The translations under genes were made by a program, and so were the position numbers. The notes under the pieces are model-generated. The model made no database searches and was not told the origin of the DNA. It saw only the letters and a program-made list of their open reading frames with translations. DNA of 64,000 nt from Tubiluchus corallicola (Eukaryota; Animalia; Priapulida): NCBI GenBank assembly GCA_030141605.1, contig JAQGDQ010000163.1, positions 186,001 to 250,000 on the forward strand, in the 5' to 3' direction. Numbering within the stretch: position 1 is the first letter of the stretch; every line of letters begins with the position of its first letter. Shown here in pieces: positions 1 through 62,294 of the stretch.

Positions 1-1679
1 AGGCATATTTTCTTGTGGAGAGAATATTTTGTAATGTGTCAGAAGAGGGATTGTATAGGTCAGTGCTATAAGGATACAACTTGGCTGTCTGGACAAGGCT
101 TCTTTAGCCATAACAACTCAAAAATTAGGTCTTTCTGTGCAGCAAGACTTCACAGTTTTACACAACACTACCTCGGGTAAGATCAGCACAGTACAGTGGT
201 TCTGTCTATGTTCTGCAAGTTGGGTACGGCAATGGTTAAGACTATATAAGCAAAAACGATTTTATTTCTTTGAAACATGCATTTAACACCTCATCCGGAT
301 CGCTGCTTATGTTACGCATCTCCTGTGTTTGCATTTATGATTTTTCTATAAATTATGTATGTGTAGTGCCAGACCTATTGGTAGTTCTTAGGTGCCCTCT
401 ATGAACTGATTTCTTTGTAGCAAAATAAGAGTTTAACTTTAATGTATCGACTTCCTAATGCCACATACATAGATGAATTTGATAAGTTCTGTTCTATCAA
501 AACTGCATGAACTTCTATGAACTGATAAGTAATGCAGTAAAATATTGCATATTAAGCATAATACTGTAATGTATTACATTTATATTTAAAAACTTAAGTG
601 TACTAATACATAAAACTTAACACTTTTTTCTCTATTATAAATTTTTAGCTTCTGTTTGTTATTACAATATCAATTATATTTCGAATAGACTTGTGTAATA
701 CATGCATTTAGCTACTACCTAAAACGCCAGAGAAACTTGGCATTAAGCGAGGTTCCCATTATAAAAGAGGGCGTTATAACAAGGTTTGATGAACAGTGTA
801 TATGAACACCTACTGTAGGAAAACACTGCATCCTATGTAACTTTTACAACAGTCACAGATGTTTGGAATATTGATGTAATGCCAAAACTTAAAGTACAAC
901 TGTTAATTTTTTGCATGAAAAATGAACGAAATGTGGCAGTCTTTATTATCGTATTTTACACACCTGATTAGTTATTTGGAATGATGAAATCATGTATTGC
1001 AAAAATCTTGTAAAGTCGGGAAAATTCTGGTGTTGCGTTAACCAGACATTTTGCACATAAAATGCAAAACAATGTGTAATTAAGACATGGATGTCTAACA
1101 GATATCCGCAAGTTTCGAGTGCAAATTTATGTTAATATATTGTAACTGTTTTCTTATCATTATAAGCACGATGCTTTGGTTTCGACGTAGCTTTAAATTC
1201 ATGAATTCGTAATGAATTGTTTGTAAGGAACTGTTTAGCACATAAGCTATTGTGATAATAATAGATATTATTATGATAATAATAGACGTTATTATTGATG
1301 TGCATGCGAAAAATTAGAAAAATTGAATAAATTTAACTTCATCATAAATCAAATGTAGCTGCTATACACTTTTTATTTCCACTTAGTTACCTAGTAGCTC
1401 TTATCCAATCGAAGTTTATCATAATTATAATTGTACAGCGGTAGTGATGTAGTTGATTTTGTACAGTGTGCACGGTCTGTGTAGAGGATTGTGACTAGAA
1501 CTCACTTTATGCGCTTTTGCTTCTGAACACACACACACTCTAATAGTTTCTCGATCACTTGTGCCTGGATCATCCTATTTGTTTAACACGTAACAATTTC
1601 ATCGATCGAATAAAGGGAACGGCTCCTAGTTGTATATCAGGACATTATGTGCACTGTACCATCAGAGTCAGAACAATCA

Positions 1680-2792
1680 TTACAAGCACTCACGATATCT
1701 ACTTTTTAGCTTGGAACATTCAAGATCAAGCGCAGATTTCTTTTCCTTTACAATAATATCTAATTGCGCTTTGGCTTTGGCAATGGTAATGCCATCATGA
1801 AAATGCAATTTTTCTTTTGGAATGTAAATGAAATTGGTGTGCAAAAGTTTTTCGATTCCCAAATCCCTTTCATGTCCTGTTTCAACAGTTTTTGCACTAG
1901 GGACTTCTGAGTTAGTAATTGAATCACTATTGCCTTTCGAAGAAACAAAAGGTAGCTGAATGTCTTTGTCACACAGCATCTGTTTTGGGTTGTTTTTTGC
2001 AGACTGGATTGTGGCTCCATCTATCCACCGCCAGAACAACGATTCTTGCTCTTTCCATTTTAGCAACAGACGTATTTTTCTGTTTTTCTCTTGTAGTGAT
2101 GCTACGTATTTTTCTGCAACGTCCCTTTTCCCTGGGTTAGCAAGCATGTAAGCATGCAGAGGTAACAAGTGAGGTATACCTCGCATGAGCTCCACCCCCA
2201 TAGTCTCCTCATTAATCTTGTGAATCAGTTTCACTTGTTCTTGCACAGCCGCATTGAAATTTTTCATTTCCATTTCCACTCGACCATGAAGCAACATGTA
2301 TCTTTTTGCACTGTCCTTATCACTGGCACTTGGCTCATCAAGAGGCACATCTTCTGTAACTGATAAACTGTCGAAATTTGGCAATAGATCACTCAAGTAC
2401 ATTCTGTCTTCTAAGCATGATTTTGCATACTTTTCAATCAGTCTTTGTTTTAGTATGAACCATCCAAGAGCAAGCACCAGCTCTCGACTACCGCTAGAGC
2501 CATCTGTTGGCAGGTGTTGAAAATTGACACTGCTGTAGCCAAGTTTATGCAAATTTGTCTTGACAAGCTGCACAAGGCATTCACGATCATTGCTATCACC
2601 CACGTCTTCTGCAGCAATTACAATACTACCTACATTCTGAAGCAGCTCGCAAAGCACTGCCCACATCGCCATGGTAACACCACATTCATCATGTTTCGCT
2701 TGTCGCAGCATTTCAGTTGACAGACGACTCTCCTCTAGAAATTCATTTAGGATGTCGCAAAACGTTTCCACTGCTTGCTTAACTTTTGACAT
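1680..2792 (-). CDS. TEDC1: Tubulin epsilon and delta complex protein 1-like (TEDC1/C14orf80), single coding exon, 370 aa
   Basis: Uninterrupted ORF. The N-terminal 'EMLRQAKHD...MWAVLCELL' and 'LGY..F..LPTDGSSGSRELVLALGWF' segments and later 'LLLKWKEQESLFWRWID' match my recollection of TEDC1-family motifs (GSRELLLALSWL; FW.WM). Confidence 0.8.
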   Translation of the reverse strand: MSKVKQAVETFCDILNEFLEESRLSTEMLRQAKHDECGVTMAMWAVLCELLQNVGSIVIAAEDVGDSNDRECLVQLVKTNLHKLGYSSVNFQHLPTDGSSGSRELVLALGWFILKQRLIEKYAKSCLEDRMYLSDLLPNFDSLSVTEDVPLDEPSASDKDSAKRYMLLHGRVEMEMKNFNAAVQEQVKLIHKINEETMGVELMRGIPHLLPLHAYMLANPGKRDVAEKYVASLQEKNRKIRLLLKWKEQESLFWRWIDGATIQSAKNNPKQMLCDKDIQLPFVSSKGNSDSITNSEVPSAKTVETGHERDLGIEKLLHTNFIYIPKEKLHFHDGITIAKAKAQLDIIVKEKKSALDLECSKLKSRYRECL

Positions 2793-2857
2793 GACTTTTT
2801 ATGTAAAACAGCACAATCAGAATTGAAGAACTCACTGACTTTGCATTATGCAATACT

Positions 2858-5800
2858 CTACATCACAGATGTTTCATCTGATAACATTTGACATTCCCTC
2901 AGTCCCTACAATAAAGAGAAAATAGGGCTTAAAAACCTCTGGCAAGTTCTGAAATAGTGAGTACAGACATACTAGACGACATTACCAAGAACTATGAAAA
3001 AGTGACACGTTTTTCCTTAATATTTTAGCGAAATAATATACAGTAACTTACGTATAACTCGAACACCTCAGGACCGGAAAACGTGCTCGAGTTATGCAAA
3101 AGTACGAGTTAGACAATGTTTGTAAGAAAACAAGATTGAGTTGCTCATCAATGTCAGAGAATCCACTAATAACATTACAATCTGAGAAAATGATAAATTG
3201 GACCTTTAATCAAATATCAAACTTCAGTTTATATGAATAATCAGTAATAAAATGATTGGTCCACCTCTATTGTAGTCTGAGTAGCATGGTTAATAGAATT
3301 CGGCAATAATAATAGCGTTATCTAGTTATTAAAACATGTTTGTCAAGCCATGTTGTGGTCAGTGTTTTGCTAAGGTAATACAAGAAATCTTAGCATTACT
3401 GCCGAACAAACAGTTAAAATCGTAATGTGATGCACACTTTTGTGTAAGATTTCTCGCTTGGGAGGCTGTTCGAGATAATTTCTGTCAGATTCTTAATTGT
3501 ACCAGGAATTTAGTTCGAGTTACGCAATAACTTGAGTTACATGATGTTTGGTAAAGGGAAAATCCATTCCATCAGATCTGTTCGAGATACGAAAGAACTC
3601 GCTATACCTGTTCGAGTTATATGTTGTTTACTATATTTTAACCATATGATCAATTGCTGAACATTGCAAAGACAGCGAAGCTTAGAAAACAGTATGAACA
3701 CACCTCTAATACCAGGCCTATATGAGCTTTTATCTGATTGCTATCTCTGGTCTGTATATTGGTAATGTCTGTAAGAAACTCGATCCGTTTCTCAATAAAC
3801 TTGAGCGCTTCTTCAAACTTATACTCTACGTAGATTCCAAATCCAATGTACACAGTGATCCGTGATGGATTCGAACTGAAATACAAAATTTTACCCACAT
3901 TTAAACTATTCTTTCATCCGCTCACATTTGTCTTTTAAATTTAACACTAAAATGCTGCATTCTACGAAATTCTCAACAGTTAACATACACATTTCATGTT
4001 TCTGCATTAGTTTGGTGAGTATTGAAGAAGAAATTACACTTCAGTCTTTTTTCAGAATAATTAAACTAGCGTCTGAGACATAGCCGGACACAATTTCAAA
4101 CAGACTCTCTATTATAGGGATGCACCAAAACCCAATTTTACCGAACTGAACCAGTACCGAATTTTTCAAAACTTTTTGCCAACCCAATTTAAACTGAATT
4201 TCTACTATTTCTTTTTGCCGAAACAGAGTTGAGCCGTATTTCACACATTTTTTTACTGAAACCGAATTCAGCCATTCAGAAATTTTTTCCCGAATCGTTA
4301 ACTTGTAGTAATAAATTTCGATAGTTCCAAGTGTCCTCAGCAAGCTTTTCAAATGGGTTTTATTTTCACAATTGGAGAGGTAAAATTTTTGTATTACGTA
4401 ACCTCCTTGATAGGTCTAGTGCACGATACTTTCCAGCACAATACTAGAAAGCTACTGGGATGAGTTAAACTTACATAACACCCTGTACGTAGTTATTGCA
4501 GCCAATGTCAACTTGAGTTTTCAGTGGTTCTCCTGGTGGATGATTTGTCTTTATCTTTTCTATTACGTTACGCAGCTGCAGATATTCACTGATCTGTTCA
4601 TACACCTTGTCACGATCATCTAAAATTTTCCTGCAAAAAAATAAGGAACCATATAGGTTTTGCAACAGGATAAAACAAAGCAAATCGGAAAACTCTGACC
4701 CAACAATAACAAAAACACAAAACCAATGCTTTGAAATGAAGCTATTTCAGCTCCCGAAGCCAAACTGTATTGTGACTATATTTGCTTAAGGTTCTTAATA
4801 TGTGTGGAAGTGCACAAGATGTTTTATAATAATAATGCCCGAAAAACATTAACAGGGTTTAATGTTTGTAAGTTGTAAATTTTACTATAGTCAGTAGTTA
4901 CTGTAGTACAAGAGCAGTACAGCCAATGTGTTTCATAACATATTTCAACAATCTTCTGAATTCTGTTGTAATGCTATGAAACCTTGGAAATACTTTCCTT
5001 GAATTTGTAAAACGTAGTTTATAAAAAGCTTCCGAGTTTCACTTTACACAAGTTGATACAACACAAGTATTGTAACTGAAGAAATGCTTTCTGTTGTTGG
5101 TGGAGCTGCAGTGCTGGTTCACTCTGCTATACTTGGTTCACTAAAATTGAAAATCGTCCACGACAGTAAAACCACAAATTAAGTGCTGCTACAAGTGAAA
5201 AAGATGCGCACAGGTCTGTGCTCTTGCAGCTGTCTATTGAACAAAAATCTGCCACGTGTCACACTAGGGATGGGATGAAGCTTTGCTACTCTGGACCCGG
5301 GTTTTATTTTAACTGCTTTGGATCCGATTTGGGTTTTGTAAAAAAACTTTATAGTTCTTGTTTACTCAGATTAAGGAGTAAGTCCACTGCCAACTAGTGT
5401 TGTAAAAATTTATGTAATTTCCCTTCATTCCTGTTTGATCTCTAATAAAAGTTAAATTTTGTGATGAGCACTTCATCATGTTGACACCTTTAATATGATA
5501 AGTTCCATAAAAAATATACACTACGTAAATGATGTTACTTTCAATAGTGACGCAAGATTTCGCATAGATTGTGTTTCTAAACACAGATGATATTTCAGCA
5601 GGCATTGTGTTTAGTTTCATTTTTACTTTAAAATTTATTAACTTAGTTAAAATAAGAAAGTGCAGTCATAAAATATGCCAACATTTCTCTGAAATTTTTC
5701 ATACGTAGTAGCACGCACATTTCGCTTAGTAATGCATTATTTTCTAGATGACAATAAATAAAGACAAAAGCAAGCTGAACATAAACTAAAGAAAAACTGA

Positions 5801-6866
5801 ATTAAAGAGTAAGTCTGAATTAAGAAACTTTACAGTGATTAGTAAGACCATTATGTTTCAACAAAACATCTTAATCCTAAACAATAAAACTGCAGTGATC
5901 CTAAGACGAAACACTTAACTTTAGCATTAATTTACAAGATTCAGATTAAATCTGGTATTGAAAATTGAAAGCGAATTAAACATTTGTATTTGATTCTGTT
6001 TCGTAAACTGCAATGTAATGTAATGTAAGATTTGGATTCAATTCAGTTTTGGAAAATTAAGCTTCGTAACACTCACAAGTCACACACATTTAATATGTTT
6101 ACGTTGCAATTTACGAAGCTGTACATCACCAACAATCATCGAAAATTACTAACAGAATTAGTGTTTCTGTAGTAGACGTCATGCAAAGTTACTGAGCACA
6201 ATATAATTCTTTATAACTGCACTCTGGTACTGTTTGACCCTCACTATTGAAAGCTAGGGTCACTCAAATATTCCGGAAAGGATGAGTGGTCAAGTTGCAA
6301 TTAACTTAAAAACTAATAAATAATTTGTATTTGTGAATGACAGGAATCCAAATGAAATACTTTCGCTGGTGCCTGAGAACACCCAAGCATGATGCGCACG
6401 TACTGCGTGGTCCTGTACTAACTTATCATATCGTGAACTAACTCGCCACGTACCATGACTCTATGCAATGCAGTGTGGTAACATGCCAAGGTGGTACGCT
6501 GCGTCGGAGTATCTGGCGAGGCGTAACACTGAGGTAAGCAAGCGCGGACATCCCACGTCATGTTCCTACCTGAGTAAGGCTGTTCAGTATGCGTGACATA
6601 GGCTATTTCATAGTATTGCAAATGCAGGAATAACTTGCACAGATAGATAGATAATTTTAATTATCTCTTGTAATACACGCAAAAAACAATTACATAGCAA
6701 AAATAAATTGTAAGTATTAGACAGATAGAGAGTATCTCATAATAGAATAAACACCGTACGAACGCATAAAGTCTTAAAGAGCTTACTTTAAGTCTTCTTT
6801 TAAAACTTCATTTACGAACTTCTCATACTTCAAAACCTTTTCTGGTATTTCCTCACCGTCTGACAT
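2858..6866 (-). CDS. UXT: UXT (prefoldin alpha-like subunit), 4 exons, 151 aa
   Basis: Exons 6866-6787, 4630-4475, 3875-3704, 2905-2858, all GT-AG and phase-consistent (456 nt). Translation [54 protein letters not shown]...[32 protein letters not shown]...[24 protein letters not shown] matches UXT motifs. Confidence 0.93.
3039..3635. mobile_element. Degenerate Tc1/pogo-type MITE in UXT intron 3
   Basis: Imperfect terminal inverted repeats (tacagtaacttacgtataactcgaacac ... gttcgagttatatgttgtttactata), TA-flanked, with internal repeats of ttcgagtta. Confidence 0.5.
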
Positions 6867-7884
6867 GGTAGGCCTCAACCCCACAAAAGTTTGTTAGAAA
6901 CAGCGCCGCTCAAGCGTGGTAAGCTTTATTATGAGAAACAGAATTTACGAAAAACAACAACCGAACAACGACTATGCACTCAATTCATTTTGATTCGTTT
7001 TTGTTTTATAAGTACTGTACACTCGTTTAGAATTTTAAGATGATTCGGAACGTCTTACCTTCTATTAGTTCGATGTAATTATTAATCGTCTTACGAAGGT
7101 TTTTTTAATATTATTGAATTATGGGTTTTGTCTTAGTGATGACTGACGAGTGCATTATTTACTTATCTTAGATACTTTAAAAAAACTTAAATAAGGTCCT
7201 TCTAACACAAGTTTAATCCTTAATGACAAAAAAGAAAACTCTAAGCTAAGACAATTAATGAAGCAACAGGGGCGTCTTATCCGGTTTGTATCTGCAGGCA
7301 ACCAAGAATAAAAGCTACATACTTGACAGTCACCCATTCATTTACTAACCAAATTTGGTACTGCTTAACAATCACATATTAGGCATAGTGTGTGCACTGT
7401 GACCACCCTGTTATTTATTTCTCTATCTGCTTTGTTGTACTTTCTGGGTTTATAAGATATAAATAAAATATAATAGCCACTAAAAATGTGGTTTTTGCTA
7501 TAATGAGTCAGTTAGCTAGATAGATACGTGGACTCCAGTCACCAGCAATGAGTTCTGATGAAAGCTGGATCAGTAATTAAGTGCTGTCACAGATCTATAG
7601 AAGATTTCATAGTCTGTTGGCAAGATCATTCCCAGGCAATTAAGTGCAGCCTGCCTTTTATTATGCTTTGTCCTAGTGCTGGCGTAGTACCGGTACTAGT
7701 ATCCATAACTGCAGAATTGCCAAATCGTAGCCAATGGTGGCAGTGGAAAACAGGAGGTACAGATTCAATAATCCTGTTATGGCTTCGGTTCCATACCCTG
7801 GAAGGGACACCATATTTCCAGGGTGCAGGACCACACACTTTTAATTAACACCCTTGTCATTAGGGGTGAGCAATCTCTGCCAGA

Positions 7885-8025
7885 AAATGAATCGAACCGA
7901 GCTTCATTATTTAGAATTCGGATCGAAATTGAAAGATTTTTGAACAACAAGATTTCGAACCACAAGTAAAAATTAGTCTTACAAAGATCGTGCATATTAC
8001 ATTGTCCTAATACAATGATACACAC
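7885..8025 (+). repeat. Partial copy of the dispersed repeat also at 14780-15115 and 19215-19545
   Basis: Shares 'agatttcgaa...gtaaa...agtctt.caaagatc.tgca.att' with the other two copies. Confidence 0.45.
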
Positions 8026-10009
8026 TGGAATTATAATGATAAAGACACAGATGTCATCTATGAAGTCATGGACTAGAAAATCATACTACCCTATGTATAG
8101 AGGGGATATCAAGGCTTGAAGCACTTGAAAATCAAAACCCAGACTCAGTCGAGCTGCCACATTCGACTCTTTAAAGTTGTTGACAGTCTTGATCAAGCAA
8201 CATTGACAATGTGGAGCACACCTGTGGTGCCTTGGTGTCTCATTTTCAAGTGTCGTGAAGCCTTAGCTACAGTCAATGAGACAATATCCATGTATTCTAT
8301 GACACACTCAAATACAGTCACAGAAGTGTCTATTGAACCCACACATCATACAATCATCAAAGAATGGCACCACTCCCTTTAAGTGCAAACATAACATTTC
8401 CTCAATGTAGGTAGAACATTCCACAAACTATCTCAAGTGATCATCTTATCCCTTGTTCTAAGGCACTTCAGGATCTTTCCCAAAAGCACAGTGAACTGTG
8501 CCTTGAATCTCTGCCCTGAGTCTTCTGGCCAAAGAGAAGACTTGGATTTCAGGAGTCCTGACCTGCCTTCTTGAGAAAGACACAAGCATAGGAAACCAAA
8601 CATGTTTTGCAGTTCAGTACAGCAAACAGGGACCTTTCCTGCAGTATTGCAAAAAAATTGATGTTCTCCTTGCTTTCATCCTGCAATTCTACTCTGATTG
8701 GTCTATCAATTAAACTGCTAATGACTCCAACCCGATGATTTGTTTGCCATTATTGTTGTAGGCAAGCAGGAACTTATCTTCAGTACTATAATGTCTAATA
8801 TCCATCTCGTTATTGTTTCACATTATTCAAGAATATTTCTACCGAGGTTGGGCACCACCTTGATTTTTAATGTTCTATATCCACTTTTTTGACCCCGCAT
8901 GCACTATAAGCTCTGTAAGGTGCTGGTGCTGTCATAGGCCATCATTTTCTAGCATCATCAGCCATCAGGAATGCACATCATCTTTATAATCTTTCTGCAA
9001 CTGCCTGCATCAGCAATTCAGCATGTACGTAAGTTTGAAAAAACAGAGTCCTCACAACTCCCGGTGGTGATGTCCTCCAGATTTCAAAGCTCTCACTCAC
9101 CTAGATAGTATCAACTCCATTTCTACCACATTAACTATGAGATCTTCCAACATGACAGTTGTTCCTATCTTAAATTACATGCCTCAAAGCTCGATATACA
9201 AGCAGTAATTTACGAAATTTGTAAAATAGAACGTGTTATGTCTAAAAAAAGTAGTTATGTGCAAGCTGCTTGTATTTTAACTCCCTATTATAGCCATGAA
9301 GCCCGGACAATGTGGTGCTGCAGCAAATTCTTGAACATACTAGTCCTACATGAGGGTATTGTTCAACATACTGACCTTCACAAGGCACAAGCTTCGAGTG
9401 CATGTGCCTGTGCACTGCACCAACTCTTTGTTTCTGACTGTACCTCTAGGTTATCAAACAGGTCATTTTTTTTAATTATGACATTGTGAGACATGAAGGA
9501 TTGAAGGATCGGTGATGGGAGGAAGAGAAATGATAGTAACAAGCCAATAACAATTGCTCGACCTTGGAAATGGCATTTTTGTTCAGCTGTTCAAAGACTT
9601 CGACACTGAGACAGAATCCATCACCCACAAGATAAACCACAAAAAAGTGATCGTAATCATGCTGCATAGCTACATACGACAACTAAATATTCATTGCGCC
9701 CAGGTAATCCTCTTGTTTATAATTACGTAGGCTTCTTTTTGCCAATTGCATGTTTGTTTATCAAATTTGTGCCAATATACAAATTTTAATTTATTAAAAC
9801 TTTCTATAAGCTTTGCTTTATTTCGTGATCAAATGCTTTTCAGTATTTCAGATTTTCTTGCGTCCTTTATAGGAATTTGCATTGCCAAAATTTAGTAAAG
9901 TTTACTCGGTAGAACTGACCTTCTTTTGCAAAAAACACAACGTGAAATAAATTGGCGTCAAAGTACTTGCCTATTGCTATGAGACGCTAGTGCCACCAGA
10001 ATTTGTAAG

Positions 10010-33200: not shown

Positions 33201-36200
33201 AAAGTCTTGTTCAGCTTATGCACACCAAGTCGGTGCATACAAACAACTTGCTCAGACTAATTTTAATTCCTGCTTAGCAACACGCCAAAGTTTTTTCACG
33301 GTACAAACTAGACAGCCATTATTTATATTATACTAAAAACACGTTAAAACACGATAAAAACCATGAAAATCACGTTATAATTAAAAATATCTTTATAAAA
33401 ATAACTCTTTGGTAAATAAAACTAACTTCTTGTCATGCAAAGTAAAAATGTTATTAGACTGCAATAATGAATAAAGGCACCATTCAAAAATACTGTTTAA
33501 TGAAAATCATTATTCATTACTGAACCATCAGTAACAAGAAAGACAGAATTAATTGTTCATTTTTGGACCTCAGTTAGTTAAATAACTGAATAATAAATTT
33601 TACCTGAATGATTCTAACAACCATGTTTTACTGGAACTCGAGTGTTCAATGACTTCATGTACAAAGCAGAGAAGAGCAATATTGGCAAGCTGATCCCGAT
33701 CTGCCATTGACAGATATAACTAAAGAGTAAAATAAATGCAAAACTGTAGAATAATAAATACTTATAATTCATTTGCCAAATTTAGATGTGGTGTTACTTC
33801 AATCCGATTGGAAACTGGTAGATACAAAGGCTGGCTTACCTGAAGTCCAGAGACTGTGCTTATTTTGTAACAGTATCAGTACTCAGTCTGAGTTGCATGT
33901 TTTAACGGGATGTGAACTTTATCAAGATAATCTATACACAAGTACAATGTGGAAAAATAAACATTTTAGTACAATGAACAATGTCGAGAAAATTTATTTT
34001 CTGTTAGGCTCATGATGGTTTATGAAAGTGAAACGGCCTGTAATAAAATTTTGTTACAAAGGAGTCAGCTAGTTCATATATACATATTACCTGCTGGGGG
34101 TCATCCTTATACTAACTTTTTCATTAGTTTAGCACAAGTATTTGTTTTAACTATAGCTATTTAGTTTATTTAGTTTCACTGTTGTGTTGACTCACCATTT
34201 ATATAATTGGTGAGTTTTGCTTATTGGAATTGATTATTTTTTAAATTCTTTGAAAATGTTTCAAATGAAGTAGCTCTCATCAGCTGCTTTTTCACAACAA
34301 TGCGGCTGCTGTTGCAGCTAGCAAAAGCAATTTTACTTTTTATGGATCATTATAGATTTTTTAGATTTTATTATTTCATTTAAGTCTCGCCTCATTAAAA
34401 CATTAATTAGACTCTATACATAAAATGAGCCACTCATTTAGAGTTAAAAGAGACTGTTAAAAACTATACATTCAATGATATAAAAAACACAGCAATACAC
34501 ACATTAACTGTAAAAGAAAAAAACTTTGCGAGTCATCACTAATGGTTACTTGACCCATCCCATCCGCTTGCAGCAAATTTTGAAAAGCTGAAATCTCGCA
34601 GCTATAGAAGTCTTATTTGCAAAACTATCACATTTCTGAATTCTTTTATCCCAAGTTCAGAAAGATAATTTAATGTTAACTTCAAGCAACAACGAGTTTT
34701 CTGGTCTCTATGATGTGTCATTTAATTTTAGGTCTTGGGTCTCCAATTGTCTAAACATAGGTTTATTACCTTATAGTAATATAATCAATCAACCGTATTG
34801 CTACAAGTACAAATTTAGTTCAATGTAAAGACATACCTTATGCAGAAGAGATAGGTGACTGTTTCATTCATTTTATGACGATGTTTGTGCATGTGTCATG
34901 TTGATACACATGCACAAACTTGCCATGCCTTGCCTTACTTTACCTTATCTTTAATTATTACAATTCTTTCCAGAAATAAAATTTATTAATTATAAATGTA
35001 GGATTATCCTTCTGGCTTCAAAGTCCAGTTTTCTCACTTGATCTGAGCTTTTAATGAGAACTTACCTTAGTATTAGACATCAAATTGCTGACATAAGCCA
35101 GAACTTTGCCAATGTGACCGTAGTGGACAAAGTTTGCAATTACACGCACATGAGGGCACTTCGATAGCTGGTACAGGTAGATGGCCTGACAAAATTGGCC
35201 TTGCTGAAGGTAGAAATCTGCAGCCAGCTCGTAAAGTCTGTACAGATCCAAGCCCAACGACACGCCTAAATGAACCAGAGAAGATGCTACATATCGATGC
35301 AAAAGTATTGTGTTAACGTGTTAAACAATCAAATACTTTTTTGGAAAAAAGTATTAGAATTAAAAGGTTAGCATACTTTTGAAACAGGAATATGTTTGAG
35401 ACATAGAGAAAAAATTAAATGTAGTCACACTGACTAAAGACTTGAATTATTCCAATGATTCACAGAACTAAACTTGAATTGCTTAGACTTTTCTTTATAA
35501 ACGTATTTGGCTGACAGTCAACTAAAAAGCAATCATATTCAAATCTACTTATTCAGCTATAACGTCAGGCTACACCACGCAAAACATAATTTTCCTACCC
35601 ATGAGCTTCACATAACAAAATTGCGATACTGGTACAGCACAATATTGTATATGAACTACCAAACCCTCTGCCATGAAGTGGAATTGAAATTAAGTTAAAG
35701 CAGTCACATTCCAGGGTTAGGCGTAAAATCTAACATCAATCTTGAAAGTGTATCATTACAGTAACTGACCCACATAGCACAGATTCCCATGGAAATTTTT
35801 GGGAGGCGATTTTAAGGTGAAATTTTTGGGGTCGACTTATACTTACAAAATGTTTTTGGGAGATGTCGCTAAAGAGTCGTCTACAGTACGAATATGTAAA
35901 GAAATAATCCTTCGTTATACGATGGACTGAATGAACACTCATACTGTGATACTTCACATCAGAGAATGTTCGCATCTTGACATTACTTCACAAAATTAAC
36001 AAATATTGCAGTAATTTATTTTAATGTTTGTGAAATTAAGTTAAAATTTATATATTACCGGTAAATAAACTAGCAACATAGCACTAGATCAGAACATGGA
36101 AATCGCCAATGTTGTGCAGGTGCTGCTGCCTGTCGGCTTCCGCAGGAAGTTTTACACTGGCCTTGTATAAGCGTGTTTTATAGGCAAAATATCGATTACC

Positions 36201-47975: not shown

Positions 47976-48439
47976 TTTTGGAGTTTTATGAAAAAATCCG
48001 TTAGCTACGTGACGTCTGAAAAGTAAGAAAAAATACATAAATTTAGAAAACAATCTTAGTAAAGTAGAAATTTACAGCTTATTGATTTCAGCATCAATAA
48101 AATTACAAGCAATAACAAAAAAAAAACCAAAGTAACACAAGAACAAATAATTAATGTAGTTTCACGTTGATATGTAAGTCATCAGCTTTATTGTTTAAAC
48201 GTTAATCATAACTGATGTCGTGATGGTGGTGACTGGATCAATACCAATGCCAAAGAAAATCACTCGAGTTCAAATAAAGTTTAGCAAAGCAATATTTAAA
48301 TGTAAGCTCATAAAATAAAAACGCCTTACAAAGTATACCATAGTATTCACTTCCAATAACGAACGGGGAAATTACACGTTATTATTTATCTTTGGTCAAC
48401 ATGATAATTATAACACAGAGCAAAAGGTTAAAAATAAAA

Positions 48440-48545
48440 CGTGAACGCAGCCATTCTTGTTTACACTTTCTCATACTGTACCCCGCCTGTTGATTGGCTA
48501 GGAGAAATGAAACATTAAAATTTTGTCCCTATTGGCTGAACCTAG
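48440..48545 (-). promoter_or_regulatory. Putative promoter of the RCC1-repeat gene, two CCAAT boxes
   Basis: gattggc at ~48492 and attggc at ~48531 (CCAAT on the - strand) with a GC-box-like ccccgcc at ~48481, ~500 nt upstream of the first coding exon. Confidence 0.4.
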
Positions 48546-51161: not shown

Positions 51162-51342
51162 TGTTTGGGCTTTCAAAAACCAAATTCGAAGCTCCATTAA
51201 ATTTTGCTGCCAAAACATGTCATTCCATCTAAACATAAGAAATTAGTGCCAAAAAATAACAAATAAACAAAAAATAACAATAGCCAAAAGTCAATTTTAC
51301 ATAATTAAGAGTTATACACTGCACTGTCGTATTAATTAATAC
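51162..51342 (-). repeat. 3' LTR
   Basis: 163 alignable nt with 6 substitutions versus 53319-53502, plus an 18-nt extra segment and a 21-nt gap (manual alignment). Confidence 0.9.
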
Positions 51343-52766
51343 CGAGTTAAATGACCATACCGAGAAGCCTCGTGGTGTGTATAATGTTCGACGCTCGCTT
51401 CAAAACGTCTAATAAAGCGCCAAAAATTCATTACATCGCCGTCGAATTTCTCTAAATCAATTGATGGCAGCTGCATGGCATTATACATTTGCATACGTCG
51501 GCGCTGCCCTTCTAGCATGATGCTCATGACTGCATTTAAGTCAGTTGGATTTGTTGGTGGAGCGGACGTTTTGCCTAAGCGCTTTTCAAAACCAGAAGCA
51601 GCAGGCCAAAATTCGTGAGGCCTAATGTCTGGCATAGCATGAAACTGTGTAGGCCTAAATTCTGTCGACGATTTTGGGACGAAGTCATCTATTGCTGCTT
51701 TCAAGCGGCTATGTTCATTATACGTTTCATAATTAGAACGAGTCTGTTGAAGCGCTGCACATTTATTCTCAGTTTGAAACCCTGGCTCTACTTGATTGAT
51801 GTAATTCCCCAACCAGCGACTAAGCATTTTCGATTCATAATCAGTTGCGCCTGTAGGTGGCGCCACGTGCCTGCAAATTGTACTGAGTATGTTGTCCCAT
51901 GGTTTCCGGGAACCTATAAAGTGAACAACTTTAACATGATTACCAAATTGTTTAACAGCTGGTAAATAACCGTAAGCACCCTTCAAGACAGCATTATATG
52001 CAAAAGGCAGATGTTTATGAAAATCTATAACCCAGGTATTGAAATATAAATTTAACAAGCCCTGGTCCCCGCCGTCAAATGAACTAGCATTCGTCTGTGC
52101 AAACGATACAAGTTTTTCGCAAGTACTTAGACTAGGCCTAAATACAAACACCCCACTATTAAAGCAGTCGGCCCACCCGACATCTGGAGCAGCAGAGAGC
52201 TCCTCATAATTGAACATATCATCAATGTTACTTAATACTAACGTATCCGAGTCCATAAATACACATTTACTGAACTGAGTTAACTGCCAACAGTGTAACT
52301 TAGTAAATGTAACATTTAACTCTGGCCTACCTAATAAAAGTAGATTTTCAGTATCATGACTATCAATCAAATTTACATACTTAACATAATCAAATTTATT
52401 TTTAAGTTGCTCTACTGCAACGTGAGAAACCTCTTTTGTGATCATCACAACCAAGCGACGCTTCGTTTTAACCTCCCGTAGACTGCATGCCAGCACCAGT
52501 GCTCCTAATGCGTACTTGTCGTTTGTGACCAAGGTAACGAAGGCTTCTTTTAAGCAGCTCTGTTCCTCCTTAGGTGTGATTTCATTTGAAACCTCGTTTG
52601 CAAGGACGTCGGTTGTCTGTAACCAGTCAGCTACCTTCTGTTTACAGCTTTCACCAGCAGATGGCGCCACATCCTGCCTGGACTCAACCTCGTCGTGACT
52701 GTCGTCGTCATTAGCACCACCAACTGTAGCCATCTCTACCTGCAGGCGTTCGTGTCTCAGCTTCAT
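51336..52766 (-). CDS. Gag-glycogenin chimeric ORF (476 aa from first Met; frame open from ~52910)
   Basis: GT8/glycogenin ~52547-51790: EAFVTLVTNDKYALGALVL, FTKLHCWQLTQFSKCVFMDSDTLVLSNIDDMF, ELSAAPDVGWADCFNSGVFVFRPS, SFDGGDQGLLN, HLPFAYN, AYGYLPAVKQFG, VVHFIGSRKPW. Gag-like flanks on both sides; the stop codon is supplied by the LTR. Confidence 0.85.
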   Translation of the reverse strand: MKLRHERLQVEMATVGGANDDDSHDEVESRQDVAPSAGESCKQKVADWLQTTDVLANEVSNEITPKEEQSCLKEAFVTLVTNDKYALGALVLACSLREVKTKRRLVVMITKEVSHVAVEQLKNKFDYVKYVNLIDSHDTENLLLLGRPELNVTFTKLHCWQLTQFSKCVFMDSDTLVLSNIDDMFNYEELSAAPDVGWADCFNSGVFVFRPSLSTCEKLVSFAQTNASSFDGGDQGLLNLYFNTWVIDFHKHLPFAYNAVLKGAYGYLPAVKQFGNHVKVVHFIGSRKPWDNILSTICRHVAPPTGATDYESKMLSRWLGNYINQVEPGFQTENKCAALQQTRSNYETYNEHSRLKAAIDDFVPKSSTEFRPTQFHAMPDIRPHEFWPAASGFEKRLGKTSAPPTNPTDLNAVMSIMLEGQRRRMQMYNAMQLPSIDLEKFDGDVMNFWRFIRRFEASVEHYTHHEASRYGHLTRY

Positions 52767-52813
52767 GGCCTGAAGTTTGAGTTCCTGTTCACGAATTTTC
52801 AGCTCCTGACTCT

Positions 52814-53146
52814 TCAGCCTTTTGCACTGTCTTTGCTGCCTTTGCGCATGGACGTGGTAGATGTTCTTAAAACACCTGCAGAAATTGAAGCTGCAACAGT
52901 AGCACGCCCGTCATCAGTGCCAGTTTGCCGTGCTGACGACTCTTTAAAACCGACTGTCTCTATACCACCGGGCTGACCGTGTGCACCAGCTAATTTACTG
53001 AAGCCAGGCTCTCCAAGCTCAGACTCCAAAACTCGCCGCACCAACTCTGCTTTACTACCAGCTACTATCAAGCCTTTTTGGCGTAAAATTGTTCGCATTT
53101 GTTCAACAGTTTTATTTTTTAACTCTAGCTCTCTTTGTTGATACAT
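52814..53146 (-). CDS. SAP-domain N-terminal gag segment (110 aa), one base out of frame with the downstream ORF
   Basis: LKNKTVEQMRTILRQKGLIVAGSKAELVRRVLE fits the SAP consensus (L..LTV.ELK..LK.RGL...G.KAELI.RL.E). Confidence 0.75.
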   Translation of the reverse strand: MYQQRELELKNKTVEQMRTILRQKGLIVAGSKAELVRRVLESELGEPGFSKLAGAHGQPGGIETVGFKESSARQTGTDDGRATVAASISAGVLRTSTTSMRKGSKDSAKG

Positions 53147-53318
53147 TGTCTTGTTTTTCTCAGGCCTAGAAAGATCTGGCTATGCGTTGAAGTAAAAACC
53201 TTCCTATATGCAAAGTAGGTTCACGCACCAACCTATAGCATACTACGCTGTCCACGTAGGCCAACTGTACAAAACGGCTGTCGAGCTCGTTGATTGTCAA
53301 GGTCGTTTAACATGGAAT

Positions 53319-53503: not shown

Positions 53504-54960
53504 TAGCTGTTATTTTAAACTAAATTAAAATTTTTTTAAAGTAATTAGAGGACATACATACGTTATTATTCCCAAATCATGAGCAATTGTAACAGATAAC
53601 GACAATACCTTATCAACCAAGGCATTTGTTTCGATGTTAATGTTGTAGAATCTGTTACTATGTCTGACCATTCAGCAGTTGTCTTTGAATGCCAAGACCC
53701 ATTGTACACTAATGCGTAGACATTGTGTAAAATCCGTAACTACCAGAATGCAAAATGGGACACAATTGGGCGTCAACTATCTATTGTTAACTGGCACAAT
53801 ACTTTTGATTCCTGTGCTTCCGTACAAAGTTTGTAGGAAGGACAGGTTCTACAACATAATCAATGAAGCCATTGACAACAACGTTCCCTGCATGGTATTG
53901 TCTAGCATGCATAAAGGTAAAAGGAAACATAACACTAATTACCCTCCTTACCTGAAACGCATAATCGATAAGAAGCGCAAGCATTGAGCATGTAAATTCA
54001 AAACGTAATAATTCTGCTGAAAATAAGAAAGAATACACCGCTCTGAATAGCAAATTTAAAAAAGAATCATATAAGTTAGCTACTCGTGAACACAGAGTTT
54101 TAGCTAGTAATGATCGTAACAAATTGTTTAAGTACATTCGTAGAACAAGATGTAATGATAATGGCATAGCACCATTAAAAGATAAGCAAGGTAACATTGT
54201 TGTTGCTGATCTAGAATTAGCTAATTTATTAAATGACTGTTTTAGTGACTGTCATTACAATCTTTGAATTTTTCACCTGTTTCTGTCCGTAAAGCCATTC
54301 AAAAAATTAAATCTAAAAAAGTTGTACGCCTGACAGTTTACCAGCCATTGTTTTTAACCAGTTGATTGATATAATCTGTTTACCTTTATCAATGCTTTTT
54401 AAAGTCTCTTTTAGTCAAAGCAGCCTCCCATATGAATGGAAAGTAGCAGATGAAGTACCCATAATAAAAAGGGAAAGTTCCGACCCGAGCAACTGTAGAC
54501 GTACTTCTCTTACTTACATCTCATGTAAAATCATGGAAATTTGTGTTTGTACAGAGATGCTAGCATTTCTTAATAGGCATAACTAAGTACCAGCATGGGT
54601 TTCTATCAAAACATTCAGGATGCACACACTTGTTAGAATCAATTTACGATTGGACTGTTGCTTTAAATGACAAAACATAAGTTGATATTATATATATTGA
54701 TTTAAAAAGCTTTTGGTTCAGTTAGTCACTGCCTACTGCTAGATTGGATTAAAAGTTTTTTAACAGGGTGCTTACAAAAAGTTGTTATTGGTAGTAGTTC
54801 TAATTATGTACAAGTAACTTCAGGAGTAGCTCAGGGCAGCCTCCTGGATCCTTTACTGTTTATGTTATTTGTAAATGATCTGCCTGATGTCATTGGTAGT
54901 ACTCATTGTAAACTATATGCAGATGGTGTAAAATTATATCACTGGGCTGACACTGGCAAT
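53504..54960 (+). mobile_element. CR1-like LINE, degraded ORF2 (end of endonuclease and RT)
   Basis: VESVTMSDHSAVVF (APE SDH), LPYEWKVADEVPIIK...SNCRRTSLTYISCKIME, QHGF, YIDLK, VTSGVAQGSLLDPLLFMLFVNDLPD...KLYADGVKLY; many stops and frameshifts. Confidence 0.88.
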
Positions 54961-55109
54961 GATAATATTGCCATTGATACACATTATCAAGGATGATCAT
55001 TATTGTGATGATCATTTACCATAATTTTGCACTTATATTATTAATATTGCTTTTTAACTGCCTTGTCGCTTATGTACTGTACTTTGAAGATTACGAAATA
55101 AGTAAAAAA

Positions 55110-58300: not shown

Positions 58301-58439
58301 GAGAGAGTGAAGTGTCCTTGAAAAAGGAGTATCAGACGACTGAGATAAGTAATAGTCAAACTTCATACAGGGAAGAGACGTGAAAACGATTATATATACG
58401 ATTGGTATAAACCTAGAATAGAACAGGCGGGAGCTCAAA

Positions 58440-59884
58440 CAAGCCGAGGTTATTTAGAGCAAATACTTTGTACGACTCTTAATTGATTTTGCCGAATGTA
58501 AAAATAAAATCTTTTACTTGGCTTTCATTGACTATCAGAAAGCATGTGACATGGTTAATCGAAACAAACTGTTGGAAATGATGGCTCTTAATGGATGCGG
58601 CTACAGGTATGTCAAAGCTATTGGCGAAACCTTGAAGAAATGTTCCAGTGTCATGGAGACCGAGACGTTTGGCTCTAGAAGAGGTGTTCAGCAAGGAGGC
58701 TCTACAAGCTGCTCATTGTTTACTCTGTTCGTAGATTACGTTATTGACTCAGTTAATGTGTCACCTGACGAGGAATGACTAGAATCTTTGCATCAGTTAT
58801 TACTGATGGACGACACGGTTCTTGCCTCATCCATGCCTGCCTTGGCTGACAAGTTGAACAGACTGTACCATGCCGTAAACGAAATCGGAATGATACTTCA
58901 TCCCCCTAAGTCCCAGTTTATGGTTATTAATTCTGAAGACACTGACCCCTTAAGTGTCGGCCCTTTTGTGTTAAAGTCGAATACACAAGGAGTTATGGCT
59001 ATTTGGGATCCATAATAATCAACTCTTCTATAGATCACCAAGTTGAGACTCACATGCAAGCTAAACAATCATATATTCGTTTTACCCATATACGTTTTTT
59101 ACCCATCGTCATTTTTAATCCAAAACGCAGGTGCGCCTTATGTTGCAAAAAGAACTGTCTGGCAAAGTGCTATGAAAAGCGCTATTCTCTATGGATCCGA
59201 AACCTGGTGGACAAAAAACCTATCATATGTTTCTCAGCCTATTTTACAGACTAAAAGAAATGTTTGGCGTGCGTCAACAGACTTGTACTGACATAGTTCA
59301 TATTGAGAGTGATATTGCTTCGTGCAAAGCTGAGATTCAGGCACGGTAACGGAATTTCATAAATACGTACAGAACATCTAATCTTTATATAGAGGAAGTC
59401 CATTACAGAAAGCGTTAGTTCTTGTTGCCGTAATGATACATCCATGGGAAGCCAGCTCCGATTTCTAGATTCAATACACGGATATCCTAGAACTGACTTT
59501 TTAAAATTACGCAGACATGCTATTCTTTCCTCGCTATCAACCAGGAGAAATACCTACTTAGCCGTAAATCCGTCGCTAACCACTCATCGCATTTATCAGA
59601 CATATGATGTGCCCGAACACGAAAGAATAGCCGCAACCGACCTGCGTCTGGGAGCTCATTATCTCCGAATCGAAACAGGACGCTGGACAAATATCCCCCG
59701 CCACCAACGTCTATGCATTTGTGGTCTTGTGCAAGACGAAGAACACATCGTGTGCCATTGTAGTTATACTAGTGATCTAAGAACTGATGGTGAAGCAGAG
59801 TTTAGTTCGTTAGATGCCTTTATGGACTGGACTTCACCCAAAGTGGTTGCTACTATATGCAATAACTGTCTTTCTAGGAGTTAA
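58440..59884 (+). mobile_element. 5'-truncated, frameshifted non-LTR retrotransposon ORF2 (RT and C-terminal zinc knuckle; clade uncertain, RTE-X/Proto2-like)
   Basis: FIDYQKACDMVNR, GVQQGGSTSCSLFTLFVD, LLMDDTVL, AILYGSETW, LRLGAHYLRIETGRWTNIPRHQRLCICGLVQDEEHIVCHCSYTSDLR. Confidence 0.85.
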
Positions 59885-61309
59885 ATAGACAGTAACGTTT
59901 GTAATGTTTTTCCAGCATTTGTTAACACATTAGCACATTTGTACATTTTTAGTCTGTCATGCGAACTTTCTTGTTGTGTTTGTGTGTGATTTGTTTTACT
60001 TGTTTTATTTTTATTCTATGCTAACGTTAAACGACTTGTTTTTTTTTCTGGACACAAGATGGATGTTGTTATTTTACTAGCAATAAGTCTCACTCCGTGT
60101 AACAAGATAATCTTTATCAATAAGTTACTACCAGTACTGCCAAGCTCGCTTCACCTATTTTACTGACTAGGTCTTGCCGGCTGCTGAAAATAAGATTTAG
60201 TCTCTGTACCTTATTTTGTTGCTGCGCAAAAAATGACCAACTGATGTGAGGCAGAGATGTGCGATCGTTGCAACTGTAACGACTGACGAGCGAACATTTA
60301 CATGAGTAAAATGGCCATTTAAAAAGCGACTTTTCTAAATTAAGTGCAACAATATATAATAAAATCAAAGACGAGTTCAGTATTTTAGACCTAAAAATGG
60401 GGTTAGTTTTTCAGACCTGAAGATGTTACACCTGTTTTCATTCATAAGAATCAAATACGGTTTTAGTTGCATCGTGAGTACTGTTGTACTACTAGAAAAT
60501 ACTTGTTCTGTATAGTCAGCTACTATGGCCATATTTTACACGTTTATTCTTCAAGATTTTTCAGATTAAAACTGTTTTTAGCTGTTGTTGGTCCTGCAAG
60601 TTTCCAGGGCATTTTTTTTTTGTTTTTCGAATTCGTAAAGTCCTAATAAGTACGTTATGTACATTAGCTGTTCCATGGCTTGTTCTGCAGATAATATTGA
60701 CTCAGTTCTAGAGAATTTACAGTAAATTTACGTGGCTCTTTTACTAGGTTCATTTTGTTGACTTGCGATTCAATTTGCTATAAGAAAGTGGGACTCTGCC
60801 GTTTCTTCACTAGTTGTTGATTATAAGTGGTAATAGAAAAACAAGGCTGCCAGTGTGCGAAGTATATGAACAGGGAAAGTAATATGAAGGAAATAAAGCA
60901 ACCGTTATTCTTAAAACAATTATTCAATTATCTTAGAATGGTCAATTAGGTGATCATTACAGACATTCTAACCTGCTATTCTGAAAATATGCGAAAGTAA
61001 ATGTGAGTGTTTCTCAAGGATGTTACGACGATCTGTAACAGCCAACGTTAACATTTAACTTACCTTTGATTGGACTTTTAGATAATGCCGGATTTTGCTA
61101 AACATAAGTGCTGAAACATTAAAAACAATTTCTATTGGATGAGACTTCAAGTGGATATTAAGCCTGTTTTTTTTCTGTCGTCTGATACCCGGCCTTGAGT
61201 TTCAAATTCCGAGCTATTGTTTAGAATGTAGCAACACCTGGCACAACTTCTTTCTCTTTCTTCTCCTCCTGCTATTCCTACTTTTCCTCGTGTGCTTTTT
61301 TCTGCTTCT

Positions 61310-62220: not shown

Positions 62221-62294
62221 AATAGGGTGGCCTAGTGGTCTAAGGCCATTGCCTTAGAAGCAGAAGGTCCTTGGTTCGTTTCCACGCTGTATTA
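62221..62294 (+). pseudogene. tRNA-like sequence (tRNA pseudogene or tRNA-derived SINE head), anticodon loop CTTAGAA
   Basis: A box TGGCCTAGTGG, B box GGTTCGTTTCC, foldable cloverleaf with mismatches (acceptor AATAGGG/CTGTATT), T6 tract at ~62299. Confidence 0.65.

What the first reader, a model, noticed from the sequence alone, without database searches (positions are those of the whole stretch)
1680..2905. UXT and TEDC1 appear to share one transcript: only 65 nt between UXT stop and TEDC1 start
Seen: the last UXT exon (acceptor at 2907-2906) encodes [18 protein letters not shown] (stop 2860-2858), and the TEDC1-like ATG is at 2792 on the same strand, with no AATAAA and no room for a promoter between them. 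Established: UXT is a prefoldin-like protein reported at centrosomes with gamma-tubulin; TEDC1 acts with delta/epsilon-tubulin in centriole triplet formation; some invertebrates have operons resolved by SL trans-splicing. Inference: a bicistronic mRNA (reinitiation or leaky scanning) or an SL-resolved operon coupling two centrosome-related genes. Automated annotation would likely fuse them or miss one.
Basis: partly seen in the sequence, partly recalled or inferred. Interest (0 to 1): 0.75.

Follow-up and report, generated by a model that had tools for sequence, protein, structure and literature searches.

The report
Centriole gene tucked behind chaperone gene
In this invertebrate genome an intron-free centriole gene (TEDC1) starts only 65 bases after the stop of a chaperone gene (UXT) and likely shares its messenger RNA, an uncommon but already known arrangement in animals that is still untested at the RNA level here.

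Summary
The anatomy is right: a four-exon UXT (151 aa) ends 65 nt before an intact, single-exon TEDC1 (370 aa, Pfam PF14970) on the same strand. The first canonical poly(A) signal lies beyond TEDC1 (1377), and TEDC1's start lacks the CpG peak seen at the UXT start. A dicistronic mRNA is therefore likely. No RNA run covered these exons, so it is unproven. 'No AATAAA in 65 nt' is chance-level (89% of shuffles). Leaky scanning is not supported: nine intervening ATGs against 9.7 expected. The spacer has no strong splice acceptor. Functional coupling of two centrosome genes is not supported: UXT lies in none of 45 other TEDC1 loci, where TEDC1 has other close neighbours (STN1 16 nt upstream, prohibitin-2 20 nt downstream). 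TEDC1 groups with Priapulus (UFBoot 99). Closest known: Drosophila dicistronic loci and human RPP14/HTD2. The scan noted similar pairs of other genes in other animal genomes before (unchecked notes). Verdict: new member of a known kind, interest 0.35. A spliced-leader operon in a priapulid-like animal remains a 13% outside reading.

The parts
6801..7200 (-). CpG-rich presumptive UXT promoter and 5' region
   Evidence: CpG o/e 1.86 at 6901-7200, the highest of all 300-nt windows in the 64 kb; 1.58 (99th percentile) at 6801-7100. Promoter function is inferred.
6787..6866 (-). UXT coding exon 1 (ATG at 6866, strong context with A at -3)
   Evidence: tblastn with Styela UXT, 64% over 25 aa
4475..4630 (-). 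UXT exon 2
   Evidence: Prefoldin, weak; 54% to Styela UXT-like
3704..3875 (-). UXT exon 3
   Evidence: (PF02996 E 1.4e-6)
3034..3640 (.). MITE-like repeat filling most of UXT intron 3; 32-nt terminal inverted repeats, 81% complementary
   Evidence: arms 3034-3065 and 3609-3640; summed depth 65-318 in run X1 against about 2-14 in unique flanks
2858..2905 (-). UXT last coding exon, TAG at 2860-2858
   Evidence: the C-terminal stretch aligns with Styela UXT
2793..2857 (-). 65-nt spacer: no CpG, 4-codon uORF (ATG at 2846), variant hexamer CATAAA at 2803-2798, weak AAG acceptor-like site at 2797-2795
1680..2792 (-). TEDC1, single coding exon, 370 aa
   Evidence: PF14970 E 1.6e-31; 78% to P0001; 65 of 68 family-conserved columns kept against 119 of 172 variable ones, p 2.8e-6
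1317..1377 (-). First canonical AATAAA downstream of the UXT stop (1377-1372) followed by a U-rich tract; predicted 3' end of the unit near 1355
   Evidence: 51% T at +20 to +60, against 20-27% for the five variant hexamers upstream of it

Best explanation
TEDC1 is an intact, intron-free gene that starts 65 nt after the UXT stop and likely has no promoter of its own, so it is likely transcribed from the UXT promoter as the second reading frame of one spliced mRNA of about 2 kb, predicted to end at the poly(A) signal beyond TEDC1. SHOWN: gene structures, spacing, position and context of poly(A) hexamers, CpG profile, ATG count. INFERRED: (1) Pol II from the CpG-rich UXT promoter reads through the weak CATAAA at 2803 and cleaves near 1355. 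(2) UXT is made by normal scanning. (3) TEDC1 is made at a low level by ribosomes that reinitiate after the 151-codon UXT frame, some via the 4-codon spacer uORF, or by internal entry; leaky scanning is disfavoured. (4) The pairing is a lineage-specific hitch-hike of a low-demand centriole gene on a housekeeping promoter, not a conserved centrosome regulon.
For: No canonical poly(A) hexamer from the UXT stop to 1378; the first one (1377) has a U-rich downstream tract that the variant hexamers at 2803, 2747, 2549, 1511 and 1420 lack. CpG o/e is the window's maximum at the UXT start and 98th percentile near the presumed 5' end of the other multi-exon gene (48150-48449). It is 35th percentile around the TEDC1 ATG, with 0 CpG in exon 4 plus spacer and 0.43 in the non-repeat sequence from the exon 3 donor to the ATG. 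TEDC1's Met is the family start, so no upstream coding exon is needed. The 65-nt gap falls inside the -34 to 319 nt range of exclusively polycistronic Drosophila loci (PMC4528330, passages). The layout matches RPP14 (124 aa) with HTD2 in its 3' UTR (PMC4705651, passages). TEDC1 sits 16 nt behind STN1 in L019 and 20 nt before prohibitin-2 in L006, so tight co-directional packing recurs with changing partners.
Against: No RNA evidence for a transcript spanning both frames was obtained. Absence of canonical hexamers is not significant: P(0) is 0.36 over 2857-1378 and 0.89 in the spacer. The CpG test has only two presumed positive controls, neither with a mapped start site, and 3000-4500 has o/e near 1.0, which could mark an internal promoter although it is largely repeat sequence. 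CCAAT and Inr-like matches occur inside the intron-3 repeat. Reinitiation after a long ORF is weak: about 82-fold lower in the CASQ2 case (PMC5972666, section 16). No UGGGA TURBS core lies in the last 100 nt of UXT. In Drosophila only 45 of 159 dicistronic loci are exclusively dicistronic, so a mixed locus is common.
Confidence: 0.5

Rival explanations
1. TEDC1 has its own promoter inside UXT intron 3 (possibly supplied by the MITE-like repeat) or further up, and is translated from a monocistronic mRNA. UXT mRNAs either end at the variant CATAAA or run through TEDC1 without translating it.
For: Intron 3 is 798 nt. CpG o/e is about 1.0 across 3000-4500. CCAAT matches at 3259 and 3201 and Inr-like matches at 3255 and 3193. 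In Drosophila, monocistronic transcripts of the 3' gene usually come from an alternative downstream promoter, and 114 of 159 dicistronic loci have some monocistronic form. In other animals' loci (L002, L022, L027) TEDC1 lies head-to-head with its neighbour, so it has its own or a bidirectional promoter there.
Against: No CpG peak at the TEDC1 start (35th percentile). The CpG-richer stretch is mostly multi-copy repeat. The motif hits are short and expected by chance (not tested against a null). A leader that includes exon 4 would carry five upstream ATGs.
Confidence: 0.27
2. UXT-TEDC1 is an operon: one pre-mRNA is cut by spliced-leader trans-splicing at an AG just before the TEDC1 ATG (2796-2795) or at the UXT stop codon, giving two capped mRNAs, as in Ciona's operons without intercistronic DNA.
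For: The gap is in the range of Ciona, Oikopleura and C. elegans operons (PMC1488885, PMC7986045, passages). A T-rich tract precedes the AG at 2796 (11 of 17 pyrimidines). The two other tight TEDC1 pairs come from loci that group with a jellyfish-like clade (L019) or match a bdelloid-rotifer protein (L006); Hydra and rotifers are listed as SL users (PMC7986045 section 3; PMC3273482 passages).
Against: The best spacer AG is AAG, whereas all 3 UXT acceptors and the RNA-confirmed intron of the neighbouring gene are YAG. 18% of all 3555 minus-strand AGs are as pyrimidine-rich. The TAG stop has only 6 of 17 pyrimidines. L006 shows a clean TTTTAG in its 20-nt spacer, which the window lacks. Priapulids and kinorhynchs are not among the SL groups listed. 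No SL RNA family was hit in the window (weak, 64 kb only).
Confidence: 0.14
3. The two genes share the promoter and first exon(s) but are separated by alternative splicing: skipping UXT exons 2-3 gives an mRNA with a 28-codon first ORF ending 106 nt before the TEDC1 ATG, which favours reinitiation.
For: The computed exon 1 to exon 4 join gives a 28-aa ORF. Some Drosophila loci yield monocistronic forms by splices that disrupt one frame.
Against: No splice evidence. Seven ATGs would still precede TEDC1. In-frame UXT-TEDC1 fusion acceptors lie inside the TEDC1 coding sequence and are weak.
Confidence: 0.09

Closest known systems
Human RPP14 / HsHTD2 bicistronic mRNA (PMC4705651, passages read)
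   Same: A small housekeeping protein (124 aa there, 151 aa here) upstream, and a second unrelated full-size ORF lying in what would be its 3' UTR.
   Different: There both ORFs are on a demonstrated mRNA; here no transcript was observed, the downstream ORF is larger (370 against 168 aa), and the linkage was not seen outside this genome.
Drosophila melanogaster dicistronic loci (159 pairs; PMC4528330, passages read)
   Same: Same-strand unrelated genes; stop-to-start gap within the -34 to 319 nt range of exclusively polycistronic loci; most do not meet leaky-scanning requirements.
   Different: Those are annotated from cDNA, RNA-seq and start-site data. 'Uxt', 'prefoldin' and 'Pfdn' were not found in 12 searched supplementary files (file 1 not searchable; CG-number names would be missed).
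SL-resolved operons of Ciona, Oikopleura, C. elegans and Hydra (PMC1488885, PMC7986045, PMC3273482; passages read)
   Same: Co-directional genes less than 100 nt apart with a T-rich spacer.
   Different: No pyrimidine-rich YAG acceptor in the spacer; SL use not shown for this organism.
Leaky-scanning bicistronic loci of green algae (PMC11892635, PMC7896298; search listing only)
   Same: Two long ORFs in tandem on one proposed mRNA.
   Different: UXT has a strong start context and the stretch between the two starts is not depleted of ATG (9 against 9.7).

Membership tests
UXT (alpha-type prefoldin-like) | Prefoldin domain and full-length similarity to annotated UXT | tested here: met
   PF02996 on exon 3, E 1.4e-6; 51% over 145 aa to Styela UXT-like, E 3.5e-50
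TEDC1 | PF14970 domain, family N-terminus, intact frame under constraint | tested here: met
Dicistronic mRNA locus | Two non-overlapping protein-coding ORFs, same strand, second within the first's last exon or 3' UTR | tested here: met
Dicistronic mRNA locus | A mature mRNA containing both complete ORFs | tested here: inconclusive
   No RNA holder listed; the one RNA-like run gave no contig on these exons
Dicistronic mRNA locus | No functional poly(A) site between the ORFs | tested here: inconclusive
   No canonical hexamer, but that is chance-level; variant CATAAA at 2803 without a U-rich tract
Dicistronic mRNA locus | No independent transcription start for the downstream gene | tested here: inconclusive
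   CpG proxy favours absence; no start-site data
Dicistronic mRNA locus | Downstream protein translated from the shared mRNA | not testable with these tools
   Needs Ribo-seq or a reporter
Leaky-scanning bicistron | Weak first start codon and ATG depletion between the two starts | tested here: not met
   A at -3 of the UXT ATG; 9 ATGs observed against 9.7 +/- 1.7 in 5000 shuffles, P 0.47
TURBS-type termination-reinitiation | UGGGA core upstream of the stop and a restart codon at or very near the stop | tested here: not met
   No UGGGA in the last 100 nt; gap 65 nt
SL-resolved operon | Unpaired strong 3' splice site between the cistrons | tested here: inconclusive
   Only an AAG with 11 of 17 pyrimidines; the YAG sites have 6-7 of 17
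SL-resolved operon | SL on the downstream mRNA and SL RNA genes in the genome | not testable with these tools
   No genome held; no RNA cover
Conserved functional gene cluster (centrosome regulon) | UXT-TEDC1 adjacency kept in other animals | tested here: not met
   0 of 45 loci hold UXT; 12 of them match the TEDC1 N-terminus with at least 500 nt upstream. All are distant relatives; close relatives could not be read.

The most novel reading that the evidence does not exclude
The pair is an operon resolved by spliced-leader trans-splicing in a priapulid-like (scalidophoran) animal, a group for which my searches found no report of spliced leaders or operons. TEDC1 would then have been recruited into operons three times independently (with UXT here, with STN1 in a jellyfish-like lineage, with prohibitin-2 in rotifers), and nematode-style operons would have a counterpart in another early ecdysozoan branch.
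Probability: 0.13. Interest if true: 0.72.

Novelty: new member of a known kind. Interest (0 to 1): 0.35.

Why it matters
If confirmed, it adds a case of two full-size, unrelated proteins from one animal mRNA in a little-studied ecdysozoan branch, and it is a practical annotation trap: TEDC1 would be read as UXT's 3' UTR. It offers a natural test of reinitiation after a 151-codon ORF with a short uORF in the spacer. The recurring tight packing of TEDC1 against changing neighbours suggests that a low-demand gene survives by borrowing a neighbour's transcription. Only the operon reading would change a textbook distribution (which animals use spliced leaders).

Tried and rejected
RNA evidence: no RNA holder listed. 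Run X1 behaves as DNA (contigs across introns). Run X2 has one spliced contig on the neighbouring gene (intron 33602-33112) but nothing on the UXT or TEDC1 exons; this blank is no evidence either way. X2's 21-nt loose end at 33635 looks like a library adapter (recalled), not a spliced leader, and it lies at an internal exon.

No whole genome is held, so operon frequency and SL genes could not be surveyed. Synteny in Priapulus caudatus could not be checked: its TEDC1 (P0003) was found, but two searches with single UXT exons returned nothing or only Styela. The DNA around the 78%-identical P0001 (1338-nt Logan contig) could not be fetched.

Fused UXT-TEDC1 proteins: none among 150 homologues. 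Stop-codon readthrough fusion: rejected, because the frames differ and a second in-frame stop follows. TEDC1 as a retrocopy inserted into UXT's 3' UTR: not needed, because TEDC1 is also intron-free in L001-L005, L019, L022 and L027-L028, though it is not excluded. A similar 18-nt motif upstream of both ATGs: 9% of 946 control windows score as high, so rejected as chance. Spacer hairpin (-11.6 kcal/mol): not tested against shuffles and not used. Rfam scan of the window found only one tRNA-like hit. My first exon boundaries were off by one and were corrected. Two papers on SL distribution that I asked for by recalled id are not held, so they were not read.
Full report
OBSERVATION. The minus strand of 1-7200 carries a four-exon UXT: 6866-6787, 4630-4475, 3875-3704 and 2905-2858, 456 nt, 151 aa, all introns GT-AG. 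Exon 3 hits Prefoldin PF02996 and the spliced protein is 51% identical over 145 aa to Styela clava UXT-like. Sixty-five nt after its TAG an uninterrupted 370-aa ORF begins at 2792 and ends at 1680. It is TEDC1: PF14970 E 1.6e-31, and the three best Atlas feature hits are TEDC1 clusters at 0.95-0.96. Its Met aligns with or within a few residues of the start of all 20 homologues aligned. It is under constraint: against the 78%-identical P0001, 65 of 68 family-conserved columns are kept versus 119 of 172 variable ones, p 2.8e-6. The window is gene-poor: the next gene upstream ends 11.4 kb from the UXT ATG. The 65-nt gap is therefore unusual here, although I could not measure its genome-wide frequency (no genome held).

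ORGANISM. TEDC1 trees group the window with Priapulus caudatus (P0003, named) and the unnamed P0006: FastTree support 0.954 with 84 sequences (6 of the first 89 hits left out as shorter than 330 aa) and UFBoot 99 with 38 sequences. The branch to the window is long (1.07 substitutions per site) and this is one fast gene, so 'priapulid-like ecdysozoan' is a lead, not an identification.

3' END. On the minus strand the first AATAAA or ATTAAA after the UXT stop is at 1377, about 300 nt past the TEDC1 stop, followed by a tract that is 51% T. The five variant hexamers checked before it (2803, 2747, 2549, 1511, 1420) have 20-27% T downstream. So a UXT mRNA that uses a canonical signal contains the whole TEDC1 frame, about 1.96 kb from the UXT ATG. 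Against this: the absence is not significant (P of none 0.36 over 2857-1378 and 0.89 for the spacer alone, 5000 shuffles each), and CATAAA at 2803 could end a monocistronic UXT mRNA just inside TEDC1.

PROMOTER. The window is CpG-depleted overall (o/e 0.68). The richest 300-nt window is 6901-7200, directly upstream of UXT (1.86). The presumed 5' region of the neighbouring RCC1-domain gene reaches 1.36 (98th percentile) with CCAAT and GC-box matches. Around the TEDC1 ATG the value is 0.54 (35th percentile), exon 4 plus spacer has no CpG, and the non-repeat sequence between the exon 3 donor and the ATG has 0.43. Intron 3 is mostly a 607-nt repeat with terminal inverted repeats and high depth in run X1; it has o/e about 1.0 and a few short CCAAT and Inr-like matches. 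This favours no TEDC1 promoter but rests on two unmapped controls and does not exclude a repeat-borne start.

TRANSLATION. The UXT ATG has A at -3, and nine ATGs lie between the two starts against 9.7 +/- 1.7 expected from synonymous shuffles, so leaky scanning is not supported. There is no UGGGA core in the last 100 nt of UXT, and TURBS-type restart is confined to codons fairly near the stop (PMC5972666, passages). The spacer holds a 4-codon uORF (ATG 2846) that ends 39 nt before TEDC1. Scanning-type reinitiation or internal entry remains; a cellular example gave about 82-fold less downstream protein (PMC5972666 section 16). That TEDC1 needs little protein is my inference. Its role in a delta/epsilon-tubulin tetramer at centrioles is from PMC11896610 (passages), where UXT, prefoldin and chaperone do not occur. 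UXT's centrosome link is stated in PMC10154696 (passages).

TRANS-SPLICING. The three UXT acceptors are YAG with 13, 8 and 15 pyrimidines of 17. In the spacer the YAG sites have 6 (the stop codon) and 7; the best tract (11) precedes an AAG at 2797-2795, and 18% of all 3555 minus-strand AGs reach 11. Ciona operons join the upstream 3' end directly to the acceptor AG (PMC1488885, passages), so this AG is a possible but weak site. The groups listed as SL users in PMC7986045 (section 3) do not include priapulids or kinorhynchs. Searches for priapulid or kinorhynch with trans-splicing terms gave 3 and 6 listed papers (one search gave nothing relevant by title). I opened one, PMC2566580, where priapulids appear only in an amino-acid composition test; the rest I saw as listings only. 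Subscription papers are not covered.

RNA DATA. No RNA holder was listed. X2 is spliced RNA on the neighbouring gene but has no contig on the UXT or TEDC1 exons. The shared transcript is therefore untested.

OTHER GENOMES. A metagenome scan gave 45 TEDC1 loci, many redundant or short. UXT was found in 0 of 45 at E up to 1, while the same search with Styela UXT finds three exons in the window; 12 loci have the TEDC1 N-terminus with at least 500 nt upstream. TEDC1's neighbours differ. In L019 an STN1 gene (PF10451) stops 16 nt before the TEDC1 ATG. In L006, L008, L009 and L010 (one organism or close strains) prohibitin-2 starts 20 nt after the TEDC1 stop, behind a TTTTAG, and a PHD-finger gene ends 258 nt upstream; in L030 the gap is 91 nt. 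In L002 the neighbour is a head-to-head DUF4485 gene, and in L022 a head-to-head ATG lies 30 nt away. All are distant from the window's animal, so conservation among its close relatives is open. No paper in the library holds both 'UXT' and 'TEDC1'. None of 150 TEDC1 homologues carries a UXT-like part.

COMPARISON AND VERDICT. The locus works most like RPP14/HTD2 and the Drosophila dicistronic loci: 159 pairs, 2.5% of protein-coding genes polycistronic, 45 pairs exclusively dicistronic. One supplementary file of that paper could not be searched and may bear on whether fly Uxt is dicistronic. Membership as a dicistronic mRNA is met on layout and inconclusive on transcript evidence. The scan's own unchecked notes describe similar pairs of other genes in other animal genomes; they are leads, not support. 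Odds: dicistronic mRNA translated by reinitiation or internal entry 0.50; internal promoter 0.27; SL operon 0.14; alternative splicing from a shared promoter 0.09. The first two can coexist. Novelty: new member of a known kind. Interest 0.35.

Noticed in passing
window 51336-53179, minus strand: A 524-aa ORF holds a glycogenin-like glycosyltransferase-8 domain (PF01501, E 8.6e-21) without introns, preceded by a SAP-domain frame (PF02037) and ending in a stretch that looks by eye like a BEL/Pao retrotransposon gag (recalled; no Pfam hit at E 0.01). It may be a host gene copy captured inside an LTR element.
   Followed up: partly
window about 18280-48500, minus strand: A large multi-exon RCC1-repeat gene (PF00415), resembling Drosophila claret (recalled); one intron (33602-33112) is confirmed by an X2 contig.
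   Followed up: partly
L019 1-1654: Intron-free STN1 (PF10451) followed after 16 nt by intron-free TEDC1. The spacer has no AG, but a CAG sits directly before STN1's stop codon. The TEDC1 groups with a jellyfish-like clade (UFBoot 94-99). A candidate dicistron or operon.
   Followed up: partly
L006 9188-11850 (also L008-L010, L029, L030): Rotifer-like same-strand cluster: PHD-finger gene, TEDC1, prohibitin-2, with gaps of 258 and 20 nt and TTTAG acceptor-like sites right before both ATGs. Operon-like, although PMC7986045 says operons have not been reported in rotifers.
   Followed up: partly
L022 3529-3562; L027 about 8000-8100; L002 9200-10001: TEDC1 lies head-to-head with a neighbour; in L022 only 30 nt separate the two opposed ATGs; in L002 the neighbour has DUF4485 (CEP112-like, recalled), itself a centrosomal family.
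   Followed up: no
window 3034-3640: MITE-like element with 32-nt terminal inverted repeats; related copies occur in X2 contigs up to 2 kb long.
   Followed up: partly
window 62221-62294, plus strand: One tRNA-like Rfam hit of modest score (43 bits), possibly a SINE head.
   Followed up: no
window 53600-55000 and 58400-59900, plus strand: Decayed non-LTR retrotransposon (reverse transcriptase) fragments.
   Followed up: no
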